A stretch of DNA of 64,000 nt from a virus. A model generated the notes under the pieces. It worked only from the letters and a program-made list of their open reading frames with translations, did not search any database and was not told where the DNA came from. The stretch is from positions 1 to 64,000 of the IMG/VR virus record IMGVR_UViG_3300036791_000458, one strand, 5' to 3'. How positions within the stretch are numbered: the first letter of the stretch is position 1; the number at the start of each line of letters is the position of its first letter. The position numbers and the translations under genes were made by a program. This document shows, one piece after another, positions 36,872-42,504 of this stretch.

Positions 36872-39800
36872 TAACTTTTCTTCCAAGTTTTTGTACTGGT
36901 ATCGTAGTATCCAATTGGTTTGAGCGTAACTACCGTGGTAGGAATATCAGCTACGTGGAAATATGGATTCGGAACCTGACGAGTGCCCGTTACTTCATAT
37001 TCTCCCGAGACTATCGCTTCTGACCATTTGTAGCCAAACTCTTGCGCGTCTTCCTTTGACCACGGATTGTACCCGGACATTCTGGTGCCTTTCGGAAATT
37101 CGAAAACCGTTGGAATACCTTTCTGATTCTCCGGATCGTGATACGCGTATATTTGAACTTCTCCCACATCACCGCCACTTGTCGCAGTCAAAGGAAGTTT
37201 GAATGTATCTCCAACCTTCCATTGAATCTTTGCACCGTCATCAAACGCGTGAAATAGTTTCTCGTTCGAACCACCATGATCATTCGAAATATTATCTAAC
37301 ATCAAACCTACATCTTTTTTCTCCGGGTCACTTGCGAGTCCATCATACTTGAATCCGGGAATACCCATTTCCTGCGCGGAATACCCGGACATCCGGAAAC
37401 TAGTTCCATGAGACGAACCCCAGTACCCGCGCCCTACACGCGTGTGTGTATCTGCATCGTAGTCTTCTGCGGTGTATCCTGAACCGGATGACGATGTGAA
37501 TTGACCACCACCCGGTTCACCTGCCGCGACTCGCGCTTGATCTTCTGAGTACTTATTGATTGGCGGTTGCGGAATGAAGAGGTCACCTTTAAAAACAATT
37601 TGATCGGTGAACTTGTTCTTGCAGTATTCAAGTGTCTTTTCGTCGTTCAAGTACTTTTTGAATGCAGCTAAATGTCTTCCCTTCGGAGCATAGGCCATGA
37701 ATACGATGTCCGGCTCGCCATGATTAAATTCTTTAAAGGCAGTCTTGTTCCAATCGTGAGGCGCGTAGGTATCATCCCATTTTGAACGACTAGTCTCTAC
37801 GAATCCTGCCTTCGCATACAACTTGGGAAGCACAGTGTCAAAGCAATCTAGTTTGTTGCCACCATTCTGAACTGCTAAACTAAGCGCGGAATAGGCGACG
37901 CCTTTATTCCCGGAACCGGGAGTATTGAAAAGCGATACAATATCACCGTCATCTTTGATCGCAACTCCGCCCTTACCATTCTCGGTAACAAACAATCGCA
38001 TGTGCTCGTAGTCTTCTGGTGGATAGACGTATACAGAAGCACTAGCTGGATTCACAGCCTTAGATGCTTGAATAGCTGCGGTGAAAGCTACGGCCCGGTT
38101 ATCTCCTTGTAGTTCAAGGTAATTGGTTGGCGTTATACCCTTCGAAGAAAAGTCTTCATGTGCTTGTTTATTAGTTTCCCAAGGAATCGCGGCAACGTTC
38201 TGTCCTGCTACATTTACAGTCCGAATCCCTCTAACATTTCGTCCGTAAGCGTTGGATATTCCTTCTTCACTTCCGCTTTTATCTCTTCCAGTGTCTGCTC
38301 CGGAAGCGCGGGTGTCTTCGGTTGTGGATTGTCCGGCACTTGTTCCCCCTTCTGCTTCGAATCTTCCATGATAGTCACGTGCTTGGTCTTCTGAGTATTT
38401 CTTGACTGCGGTGCCAAGTTTAATTACTTCGCTCGTACCATCTGCTTTAGTAATCGTAAGAGAATCGATGAATACAGTTTGACCTGATAGAATCTGGTTG
38501 CCAACTAATTTTAAACTACCGCAATCAGGTTTCACGTAGGCGATAGTCATGTGAGGATGGAAATCAAACGTTGCAGGTTTAAAGTCTGCGTAGTCTGCGA
38601 CTTCCTGATTGATCTGCTCAAGTGGAGTTAAATCTTTTTCTAAGTCATCGCGCTTCTTCTTTTTCCCGTCTGTTTCAAGATTGTATGTGTTCAATCCTGT
38701 CTCGGTTGTTATACCGGAAGTAGTTGCGTCCTTGATCATGGCAGGTTCTTCGGCTGTCGCGAACGCTTTTTCTTTGAACTCTTCCATCGGCATAACGTCC
38801 ATCGACTGGAAGAAGTCAGGACTTGTGTAGTTATCCAAAAATGCTTTCTTTGCATCGGCTGCGGAGTCCCAACCGAGCATGACCTTGTCTTCGTCGTAGT
38901 CCCCAGTAGAAGGCTCCTTAGTATGAATAACATAAGCGAAAGCCGCGTCTTTACTTGGGCCAATAAAGCAGTCAACATGGTCACCGTCTACACCTTCTGT
39001 ACCCCGAATGTACCCGTAAGGGTACGTCATCGTTATAGACCAATGCTTACCGTCTTTACCGACACCTTCTCTAGTCGAACCCTTATCGGTTTCGATGGAT
39101 ATTTTCATCCCTTGGAAGTCAAGACGATCTTCTAATGGACGTTGTTTCTTAAGTTTTATTATGCTATGAGACGCGCCTGAGGCAAGCCACCTATCCGCGT
39201 TTTCTGATGCATCATCTCCCCGGAAGTTCCCGCGAATGACACCTTGCTGTAAAGACCGCTCACTGATAATAGTCGCTGTACTACTCTTAGGCCATAGCTC
39301 AATGATGATATGCTTACTTGTTACATGAGCTAGACCATCTCTCATGTGTTCTATGGTGCGCGGATCATCTTTCGCTCCTTGCATTCCTGCGATACCGTTC
39401 TCAGAAGTCACACGAATGTTGCCGTTATCTATCGCGTAGCCGACTATGTTTGAAGTCTCACCCGCGTTAACTGCAACTCTTCGAGATTGAGTACTGTCCA
39501 ACAAACCATTCTGTAGAGCAGAACGAGCATGGAATCCACCATTGTCCCGGTTAACGATAAACTCCCCGTCTTTGGTTATCCACCCTTCTGGCAGGATACC
39601 AATACTCGATAGTTTGACTGTGCCTTTTTCGCCGTGGCCTTCTTCTCCCGGATAGAACCCAGCAGGAGTTTCATCTTCACTCGCAAATCTTCCGTGGTCA
39701 TCTCTTGCTTGGTCTTCCGAGTACTTGAAAACTTTGTTAGTCTTTGGCGCACGAATCATGTAAGCATACTTACCATTATCACGACGATCAACTTCAAATC

Positions 39801-42504: not shown

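What the first reader, a model, noticed from the sequence alone, without database searches (positions are those of the whole stretch)
38398..41220. 2H phosphoesterase (Acb1-like) split by a ~750-aa insertion of four other domains
Seen: the first half (VSK|SVDPV...EDEPHITVRYG...PLVVEIGS, ~41220-40879) and second half (LEK|DLTPLEQINQEV...FHPHMTIAYVKP...IKLG, ~38636-38401) carry the two HxT motifs about 835 aa apart. Between them lie NMNAT-like, GNAT, an unknown domain, a PPase-like domain and a capsid-like peptide. Established: 2H enzymes need two HxT/S motifs normally about 70-90 aa apart; T4 Acb1 is a phage 2H enzyme that degrades CBASS cyclic nucleotides. Inference: a nested polyprotein in which the enzyme folds around a looped-out cargo, or is matured into a two-chain enzyme when the protease excises the insert.
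Basis: partly seen in the sequence, partly recalled or inferred. Interest (0 to 1): 0.8.

Follow-up and report, generated by a model that had tools for sequence, protein, structure and literature searches.

The report
Naturally split 2H phosphoesterase in phage cargo
A soil phage's 1,884-residue virion "polyvalent" protein carries the two halves of one 2H phosphoesterase domain about 750 residues apart, and its one close relative carries them on two separate proteins; both halves are kept by selection, so the enzyme probably reassembles from two pieces, though no assay or binding test shows this.

Summary
In ORF 36871-42525 (minus strand) the first HxT motif is HIT at residues 489-491. The second is HMT at 1325-1327, 836 residues later.

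- **The pieces fit one domain.** A family model built from 144 uninterrupted homologues matches the N piece on positions 8-109 (E 2e-36) and the C piece on positions 107-177 (E 8e-20).
- **The split is unusual.** 144 of 151 homologues have the halves adjacent, and the junction length hardly varies.
- **What lies between.** An NMNAT-like domain, a GNAT-like module (not confirmed), an unknown domain, an InPase domain and a peptide copying the putative capsid protein's N-terminus.
- **It is not an artefact.** The only close relative, an IMG/VR contig with about 88% identity, has both junctions, but its halves lie in two different ORFs.
- **Both halves are constrained.** dN/dS is 0.13 and 0.05 at dS of about 0.9-1.0.
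- **The model assembles them.** AlphaFold2, given intact homologues in the alignment, builds one 2H fold (Z 14.7 to drCPDase, 11.4 to Acb1).

My reading, at 0.55, is a two-piece enzyme that assembles non-covalently, probably after cleavage at the linkers. Activity, cleavage and binding are untested. "Acb1-like" is not specifically supported. Notes of this scan describe the relative's split on other DNA. This is a new variant of a known kind.

The parts
36871..42525 (-). P0001, a 1,884-aa polyvalent virion-cargo ORF. A public gene call starts 7 codons further in.
   Evidence: It lies between the portal (44480-47476, PF04860), a 662-aa polyvalent ORF and MuF (34868-36886, PF04233).
41491..42000 (-). 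Zeta-toxin-like P-loop kinase domain (residues 176-345). It sits in the same linker-bounded module as the N half.
   Evidence: PF06414 E 6e-19.
40879..41193 (-). 2H phosphoesterase N half (residues 445-549).
   Evidence: Family HMM positions 8-109, 113 bits, E 2e-36. PF13563 profile 24-71. dN/dS 0.13. pLDDT about 95 in the model.
41053..41061 (-). First catalytic-type motif, H489-I-T491.
   Evidence: These columns are invariant among homologues.
40837..40878 (-). Linker of the KYSEDQARDYHGRF type, directly after the N half at the junction.
   Evidence: It is one of 10 copies across four ORFs.
40306..40794 (-). NMNAT-like cytidylyltransferase domain (residues 578-740), the first domain of the intervening stretch.
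   Evidence: PF01467 E 2e-6. TIGR00482 E 7e-6. Foldseek and VIA matches to NadD and NMNAT.
40159..40200 (-). Linker (residues 776-789).
39730..40143 (-). GNAT-like module (residues 795-932). The family is not confirmed.
   Evidence: No Pfam match. Weak PHROG 14082 match, E 0.007. The GNAT reading rests only on an RGSGRA-type motif and the strand/helix order in a low-confidence model.
39685..39726 (-). Linker (residues 934-947).
39145..39678 (-). Domain of unknown family (residues 950-1127).
   Evidence: No Pfam match and no Atlas hit. A homologous stretch occurs in P0062 and in the relative.
38767..39129 (-). InPase domain (residues 1133-1253), the type I pyrophosphatase clade of polyvalent proteins.
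   Evidence: PF18823 E 1.6e-39. Described in PMC5512222, section 23.
38674..38733 (-). 20-residue copy of the N-terminus of the putative major capsid protein, preceded by M-I-K.
   Evidence: 16 of 20 residues but only 40 of 63 nucleotides are identical to ORF 13799-15388 residues 15-34. It is also present in the relative.
38401..38637 (-). 2H phosphoesterase C half (residues 1297-1375).
   Evidence: Family HMM positions 107-177, 59 bits, E 8e-20. PF13563 profile 82-119. dN/dS 0.054. pLDDT 85-97 in the model.
38545..38553 (-). Second catalytic-type motif, H1325-M-T1327.
   Evidence: These columns are nearly invariant among homologues.
38359..38400 (-). Linker directly after the C half, the usual end of an intact 2H module.
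   Evidence: Intact homologues also end in such a linker.
16356..18431 (-). Candidate head-maturation protease, the proposed processing enzyme.
   Evidence: PHROG 9427 E 5e-8 and PHROG 80 E 5e-6, both 'head maturation protease'. No Pfam match.
13799..15388 (-). Putative major capsid protein, whose residues 15-34 are copied in the cargo protein.
   Evidence: It follows the protease gene and a scaffold-like gene. PHROG 13692, function unknown, E 4e-66. It is 93% identical in the relative. The fold was not tested.

Best explanation
The two pieces are the halves of one 2H phosphoesterase of the clade found in phage polyvalent proteins. The break lies at the junction between strand 5 and helix 3.

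Each half belongs to a different linker-bounded cargo module. One module holds the Zeta-like kinase plus the N half. The other holds the unknown domain, InPase, the capsid-like peptide and the C half.

I propose that the halves reassemble non-covalently into one bilobed 2H fold with both HxT motifs facing one active-site cleft. Covalent continuity would then be irrelevant, which explains two arrangements. In this phage the halves sit in one chain about 750 residues apart. In its relative they sit in two chains.

The polyproteins are probably packaged through their portal and MuF context. They are probably cut by the head protease after the conserved Lys of the K-YSEDQAR linkers, and perhaps after M-I-K before the capsid-like peptide. 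That would make the working enzyme a two-chain complex which also couples the kinase module to the InPase module. Its likely job is to degrade or process 2',3'-cyclic or 2'-5'-linked nucleotides or RNA ends early in infection, as proposed for this clade in PMC5512222.

Shown here: complementarity of the halves, rarity of the split, conservation of both junctions, purifying selection, and compatibility with the fold. Inferred: reassembly, cleavage, packaging and substrate.
For: - **Exact complement.** The family HMM matches positions 8-109 and 107-177 of 180. Pfam profile positions 24-71 and 82-119 are consecutive.
- **Key residues kept.** All invariant and nearly invariant family residues, including both HxT motifs, are present.
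- **The split is abnormal.** 144 of 151 homologues have adjacent halves. 130 of the 144 have the same junction length, and the range is -4 to +7 residues.
- **No spare copy.** The 76.5-kb record holds no other 2H domain.
- **Junctions recur.** Both are conserved in an independently assembled relative. There a stop codon, a small N-module ORF and a new start separate the halves.
- **Selection on both halves since the split.** The N half has 24.5 nonsynonymous differences over 231.5 sites against 38.5 synonymous over 74.5 (Fisher p 1e-12, dN/dS 0.13). The C half has 10 over 182.7 against 29 over 51.3 (p 3e-15, dN/dS 0.054). Neighbouring enzyme domains score 0.06-0.11.
- **Fold compatibility.** The AlphaFold2 model of residues 438-1377 gives pLDDT of about 95 for both halves. 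Its top 20 structural matches are all 2H enzymes, with 150-166 aligned residues spanning model residues about 12-937. That is more than either half holds. Examples: 5h7f Z 14.7; 1vgj Z 14.2 with 161 of 184 residues aligned.
- **Tethers on both sides.** Model confidence is low on both sides of the insert: pLDDT about 35 just after the N half and 29-41 in the roughly 40 residues before the C half.
- **Linkers are selected as peptides.** Ten copies across four head-module ORFs differ by synonymous changes, and a Lys precedes YSEDQ in all ten.
- **A candidate protease exists.** A head-protease-like gene is present.
Against: - There is no biochemical or proteomic evidence for assembly, cleavage or activity.
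- The confident model used an alignment that contains intact homologues, so docking of the halves may simply be inherited from them. A control alignment without them gave an unusable model (mean pLDDT 40).
- The complex predictor was unavailable.
- Only two genomes show the split, so the selection estimate rests on one pairwise comparison.
- P0062, a more distant protein, keeps an even shorter N fragment that ends just after the first HxT motif and runs straight into a linker. Fragments of this domain may therefore persist as leftovers of module shuffling.
- Low dN/dS shows constraint, not phosphoesterase activity.
Confidence: 0.55

Rival explanations
1. The halves are leftovers of module shuffling. 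Recombination at or near the repeated linkers cut a 2H domain, or two copies of it. The pieces no longer form a phosphoesterase. They are conserved because they now act as structural extensions, spacers or packaging elements of the neighbouring kinase and InPase domains.
For: Modules have clearly been reshuffled between the two relatives. The kinase-stop-N-module block sits at different linkers in each. P0062 carries a shorter 2H N fragment fused straight to a linker. The N-half junction resembles the start of helix 3, which is compatible with an illegitimate join.
Against: dN/dS of 0.05-0.13 at dS of about 1 is as low as for the intact enzyme domains next door. Both HxT motifs and every family-invariant residue survive in both genomes. 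The two pieces together make exactly one domain, with nothing missing and only 3 positions shared. That is not expected of two independent scraps.
Confidence: 0.25
2. This is a cis-only nested domain. The enzyme folds only as one chain around the looped-out 750-residue insert, and the linkers are not cut.
For: In this window both halves lie in one open frame, and model confidence is low on both sides of the insert. The single-chain model forms the 2H fold.
Against: In the relative the halves are on different ORFs yet equally conserved. A chain connection therefore cannot be required, unless the relative's copy is dead, and its dN/dS argues against that.
Confidence: 0.1
3. Each half works without the other. 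For example, each could form a homodimer that recreates a symmetric 2H-like fold with two identical HxT motifs, as the pseudo-twofold symmetry of the superfamily would allow.
For: The break lies between the two pseudo-repeats, and each half keeps one HxT motif. Several copies of cargo proteins per capsid are plausible from general knowledge of phages.
Against: Both halves are retained in both genomes, and together they make exactly one domain. No standalone half-size homologue was seen among the best 151 hits apart from apparently truncated or frameshifted calls. This reading was not tested by modelling.
Confidence: 0.07
4. The arrangement is an assembly artefact or a recent inactivating rearrangement in one metagenomic contig.
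For: The repeated linkers could in principle confuse an assembler. Logan contigs of the run break at 40063-40074, inside the insert.
Against: Linker copies share at most about 23 identical bases in a row. Logan contigs bridge both half junctions. The same two junctions occur in a second contig from another sample that differs at dS of about 0.9.
Confidence: 0.03

Closest known systems
2H phosphoesterase domains of phage-type polyvalent proteins (Iyer, Burroughs, Anand, de Souza, Aravind 2017, PMC5512222)
   Same: Same clade by sequence: 564 homologues, and the family HMM gives E 2e-36 and 8e-20. Same setting: a multidomain protein between portal and MuF, together with InPase. Some members share the same kind of inter-module linker.
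   Different: The described members, and 144 of the 151 examined here, are contiguous domains of about 170 residues. This one is broken at the junction between its two halves, which lie 750 residues apart or on two proteins.
LigT / CPDase / YjcG-type cellular 2H enzymes (for example 5h7f, 1vgj, 4qak, 2d4g)
   Same: These are the best structural matches of the assembled model (Z 13.3-14.7, 151-162 residues aligned). YjcG is the best PDB sequence match, though a weak one (E 0.022). They share the two HxT motifs.
   Different: They are single-chain standalone enzymes with only 10-19% identity. Nothing here links the phage domain to RNA ligation or to an RNA ligase partner.
Acb1 anti-CBASS nuclease of phages T4 and FBB1 (7t27, 9q2g)
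   Same: Same superfamily, also phage-encoded, and a plausible role in degrading nucleotide signals. Structural match Z 11.4 with 135 residues aligned.
   Different: Not the nearest relative: sequence E 0.17 and a lower Z than the LigT and CPDase types. Acb1 is a small free protein, whereas this is a split domain in virion cargo. The substrate is untested.
Virion cargo processed by head proteases: P1 DdrB and DarA (cited in PMC5512222), and T4 internal proteins with capsid-targeting sequences (from my own knowledge)
   Same: Enzymes encoded in the head module are proposed to be packaged and cut into working units. Here there are conserved inter-module peptides, a protease-like gene, and a peptide that mimics the capsid protein's N-terminus.
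   Different: The K-YSEDQAR linker is not a described cleavage site; I found no paper on it. No embedded metallopeptidase domain was found. Cleavage here is an inference.

Membership tests
2H phosphoesterase superfamily (PF13563 / PF02834) | Two H-x-T/S motifs | tested here: met
   H489-I-T491 and H1325-M-T1327. Both align to the family's invariant H and T columns.
2H phosphoesterase superfamily (PF13563 / PF02834) | Profile match above the curated cut-off | tested here: met
   PF13563 whole-protein score is 29.5 bits against a cut-off of 27, but only as the sum of two stretches. Each half alone scores 20.4 and 18.2 bits.
2H phosphoesterase superfamily (PF13563 / PF02834) | Bilobed alpha+beta fold with both motifs in one cleft | tested here: met
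   In the AlphaFold2 model the halves align together to 20 solved 2H enzymes at Z 9.5-14.7. The model depends on an alignment of intact homologues. The control without them was unusable.
2H phosphoesterase superfamily (PF13563 / PF02834) | One contiguous domain, with the motifs some 70-90 residues apart | tested here: not met
   The motifs are 836 residues apart, and in the relative they lie on two ORFs.
2H phosphoesterase superfamily (PF13563 / PF02834) | Phosphoesterase activity | not testable with these tools
   This needs an enzyme assay.
Polyvalent-protein clade of 2H domains (PMC5512222) | Sequence membership, and a location in a phage polyvalent protein of the head module | tested here: met
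   Family HMM E 2e-36 and 8e-20. Portal and MuF neighbours, with InPase and Zeta domains in the same ORF.
Acb1 anti-CBASS nucleases | Specific sequence or structural affinity to Acb1 rather than to other 2H families | tested here: not met
   Profile against PDB sequences: Acb1 E 0.17-0.37, YjcG E 0.022. VIA: Acb1 Z 11.4 and 11.1, ranked 12th and 14th behind CPDase, LigT, Usb1 and AKAP18 types.
Acb1 anti-CBASS nucleases | Hydrolysis of cyclic oligonucleotide signals and CBASS evasion | not testable with these tools
   This needs an assay.
Phage polyvalent proteins | Several unrelated effector domains in one polypeptide, linked to portal or MuF packaging genes | tested here: met
   Zeta toxin, 2H, cytidylyltransferase and InPase domains lie in one 1,884-aa ORF between portal and MuF.
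Intein or other self-excising insert | A Hint or splicing domain, or a homing endonuclease, within the insert | tested here: not met
   Pfam, NCBIfam and PHROG scans of the ORF list no such domain. The insert consists of enzyme modules and linkers.

The most novel reading that the evidence does not exclude
This is a naturally split 2H enzyme. Two virion cargo modules each carry half of the catalytic domain, and they become an active phosphoesterase only when the halves meet, in trans after proteolytic release. The split domain would then double as a heterodimerisation device that couples a Zeta-like kinase module to an InPase module, and possibly delays activity until cargo is processed or ejected. 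I found no description of a natural two-piece 2H enzyme in the library searched.
Probability: 0.4. Interest if true: 0.72.

Novelty: new variant of a known kind. Interest (0 to 1): 0.6.

Why it matters
2H phosphoesterases are treated as compact single-chain domains. Phage members such as Acb1 are of interest as counter-defence enzymes.

A split form that is conserved and under selection would show two things. First, the fold tolerates breakage at the junction between its two ancient repeats. Second, the cargo modules of phage polyvalent proteins can depend on one another rather than being independent beads on a string.

It also gives a concrete and cheap test: mix the two halves and assay. That test bears on whether the conserved K-YSEDQAR linkers are processing sites and whether ORF boundaries matter in these cargo proteins.

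In practice, domain annotation and anti-defence gene finders will miss such enzymes, because each half scores below family cut-offs.

Tried and rejected
- **Control fold.** A second AlphaFold2 run used an alignment without intact homologues (A6). It gave mean pLDDT 40, with the halves at about 40-70. It is unusable and says nothing about docking.
- **Foldseek.** On the 940-residue model it returned only NadD and PPAT matches for the NMNAT-like domain.
- **Searches for more relatives.**
  - Megablast of the ORF against phage records: no match.
  - Metagenome scans with the C half and with P0062: nothing.
  - Viral scan with P0062: nothing.
  - Genome scan with the N-half junction: only matches to the NMNAT motif.
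  - Word-indexed protein searches: only the window's own protein and the relative's two ORFs.
- **Origin of the split.** I asked whether the halves share the same nearest intact homologues, which would separate one split gene from two truncated copies. The Spearman correlation was 0.23 on a range-restricted set, which is inconclusive. The two InPase-plus-intact-2H homologues are not especially close to the C half.
- **DNA-level restoration.** No DNA repeat flanks the insert that could restore an intact domain. Only the linker repeats were found.
- **Unnamed modules.** No Pfam family matched the GNAT-like, unknown, 1395-1655 or C-terminal modules. The Atlas gave no usable hit.
- **Signals and expression.** Promoter-like and terminator-like sites were fewer than in shuffled sequence. 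No RNA holder was listed among sequencing runs.
- **Literature.** No paper was found on the linker motif or on a naturally split 2H enzyme.
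Full report
**Setting.** The window is the first 64 kb of a 76.5-kb linear viral record. Sequencing-run look-up places it in a soil metagenome.

The finding lies in ORF 36871-42525 on the minus strand, 1,884 residues, stored as P0001. A public gene call for it starts seven codons further in.

The gene order on the minus strand is:
- portal (44480-47476, PF04860);
- a 662-aa multidomain ORF;
- P0001;
- MuF (34868-36886, PF04233).

This is the head-module setting of phage "polyvalent proteins" (PMC5512222).

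A peptide of the form K-YSEDQAR, followed by D-[DY]-HGRF or by VPAG-x-PGGGQF, occurs ten times across these four ORFs. Its DNA copies differ by synonymous changes and share at most about 23 identical bases in a row. The peptide is therefore what is conserved. Looser forms of the same motif occur in 17 of 151 other proteins that hold this 2H domain.

**Checking the observation.** H489-I-T491 lies at 41053-41061 and H1325-M-T1327 at 38545-38553, 836 residues apart in one frame.

Pfam PF13563 matches the first piece on profile positions 24-71 and the second on 82-119, which are consecutive parts of one model. The whole protein scores 29.5 bits, above the 27-bit cut-off. Each piece alone scores 20.4 and 18.2 bits, below it.

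Between the pieces lie:
- a cytidylyltransferase of NMNAT/NadD type (PF01467 E 2e-6; structural Z about 8);
- a module that looks GNAT-like but has no Pfam match;
- a domain with no match anywhere;
- an InPase domain (PF18823 E 1.6e-39);
- a tail of about 40 residues.

**Are the pieces two halves of one domain?** Yes.

An exhaustive HMMER search with the N piece found 564 proteins, most of them long multidomain proteins. In 144 of the best 151, a match to the C piece follows the N-piece match directly, with a gap of -4 to +20 residues. Most of the seven exceptions look like truncated or frameshifted calls; the informative ones, P0003 and P0062, are described below.

An isolated phage, Tunturiibacter phage Tunturi_5, has an uninterrupted copy inside a 1,362-aa polyvalent protein.

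I built a 180-position HMM from the 144 intact domains. The N piece covers positions 8-109 (113 bits, E 2e-36). The C piece covers positions 107-177 (59 bits, E 8e-20). This is an exact complement with a three-position overlap.

The junction between the halves has the same length in 130 of the 144 intact homologues, with a range of -4 to +7. A 750-residue interruption is therefore exceptional. The record holds no other 2H copy.

**The relative.** Only one close relative exists in the collections searched: IMGVR_UViG_3300036828_000363, 93 kb. It has both junctions: N half to linker to NMNAT, and InPase to tail to C half.

There, however, the N half lies in a 1,817-aa ORF (P0003) that ends in a stop. 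A small ORF homologous to the N-terminal module of P0001 follows. Only then comes the 969-aa ORF that carries the GNAT-like, unknown, InPase and C-half modules.

The block "kinase, stop, N-module" thus sits at different linkers in the two phages. Modules are reshuffled at linkers, and the ORF boundary has moved relative to the halves.

This rules out an assembly artefact. Logan contigs of the run also bridge both half junctions. They leave only a 12-base overlap unbridged at 40063-40074, inside a stretch that is contiguous in the relative.

**Selection.** Between the two phages, dS is about 0.9-1.0.

| Segment | dN/dS | Nonsynonymous differences / sites | Synonymous differences / sites | Fisher p |
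|---|---|---|---|---|
| N half | 0.13 | 24.5 / 231.5 | 38.5 / 74.5 | 1e-12 |
| C half | 0.054 | 10 / 182.7 | 29 / 51.3 | 3e-15 |

The Zeta, NMNAT, GNAT-like, unknown and InPase segments give 0.06-0.11.

Both halves have therefore been under purifying selection while split, as strongly as the intact enzymes beside them. Both HxT motifs and every invariant family residue are kept in both phages. This rests on one pair of genomes, and it shows constraint rather than catalysis.

**Fold.** AlphaFold2 was run on residues 438-1377 with an alignment that includes intact homologues. MAFFT did align their C halves to the distant C piece.

The model has pLDDT of about 95 for the N half and 85-97 for the C half. 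It is poor elsewhere.

A Foldseek-independent search of about 48,000 PDB representatives put 20 2H enzymes on top:
- drCPDase 5h7f, Z 14.7;
- *P. horikoshii* 2'-5' ligase 1vgj, Z 14.2, 161 of 184 residues aligned, model range 14-937;
- Usb1, LigT, YjcG, AKAP18 and ASCC1;
- Acb1 7t27, Z 11.4.

An alignment of 150-166 residues needs both halves in their canonical mutual position.

The caveat is that covariation from intact homologues can produce this result. A control alignment without them gave only pLDDT of about 40 and is uninformative. The complex predictor was unavailable.

**Family.** The domain belongs to the 2H clade that Iyer et al. describe as specific to phage-type polyvalent proteins. 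They propose RNase-like activity or degradation of 2'-5' or cyclic nucleotide signals.

"Acb1-like" is not specifically supported. The profile against PDB sequences gives YjcG E 0.022 and Acb1 E 0.17. In structure, Acb1 ranks below the LigT and CPDase types.

**Mechanism.** The linkers delimit modules. The N half shares a module with the Zeta-like kinase. The C half shares one with the unknown domain and InPase. Both modules are conserved as units in the two phages, while the ORF boundaries are not.

The simplest account is that covalent connection does not matter. On this account the halves find each other and form one fold, in cis here and necessarily in trans in the relative.

Three observations suggest that the polyproteins are cut into modules:
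- a Lys precedes YSEDQ in all ten linkers;
- the tail before the C half holds a 20-residue copy of residues 15-34 of the putative major capsid protein. It is 16 of 20 identical at the protein level but only 40 of 63 at the DNA level, and it is also present in the relative. It follows M-I-K, as the capsid copy follows L-R-K;
- a head-maturation-protease-like gene is present.

Cleavage, packaging and substrate are inferences.

**Rivals.** The main rival is that the halves are leftovers of shuffling kept for another reason. Its best support is P0062. This protein is 49-56% identical over the N fragment, and its 2H piece stops just after the first HxT motif and runs into a linker. I could not fetch its contig to look for a partner.

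How the split arose is unresolved. It could be one insertion, or two copies with complementary truncations. The neighbour comparison was inconclusive. The small overlap at the break and the resemblance of the N-half junction to the start of helix 3 fit either history.

This is a new variant of a known kind: a split member of the polyvalent-protein 2H clade, known from two contigs.

Notes of this scan on another genome describe the same split in the relative. I had found it independently.

Noticed in passing
window 38674-38733 and 15287-15346: A 20-residue stretch of the cargo protein is 16 of 20 identical to residues 15-34 of the putative major capsid protein, but only 40 of 63 nucleotides match. 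Both copies follow hydrophobic-x-Lys, and both are kept in the relative. It may be a shared protease site or a capsid-binding mimic.
   Followed up: partly
L002 12487-12753: In the relative, a small ORF of about 88 residues lies between the two polyprotein ORFs. It is homologous to the N-terminal module of P0001 and to the N-terminus of the relative's MuF. Its stop overlaps the next ORF's start (GTGATGA) in another frame, which could mean two genes or a frameshift.
   Followed up: partly
window 34868-47476; L002 4155-17203: The block 'PI3/4-kinase-like domain, stop, N-module' sits at different linkers in the two phages. The portal C-terminus and the MuF N-terminus also carry linker-bounded modules. 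The K-YSEDQAR linkers look like recombination joints for swapping modules.
   Followed up: partly
protein P0062 (no locus), residues 419-480: A more distant polyvalent protein has a 2H N fragment that ends right after its first HxT motif and is fused directly to a linker, followed by a homologue of the unknown domain (P0001 residues 932-1124).
   Followed up: partly
window 40864-40893: The N-half junction (S-P-N-L-T-K-Y-S-E-D-Q) resembles the start of helix 3 of intact homologues (S-P-E-L-H-R-I-N-A-E-L) position by position. The linker may stand in for that helix, or it may mark a join made by microhomology.
   Followed up: no
window 42495-44483: The 662-aa ORF between portal and P0001 holds a PI3/PI4-kinase-like catalytic stretch (PF00454 E 2e-9) behind a linker. 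The relative carries two such kinase modules.
   Followed up: no
window 24405-31234: Two large ORFs of 1,146 and 925 residues have long collagen triple-helix repeats (PF01391 E about 1e-68 to 1e-71). They are probably fibres.
   Followed up: no
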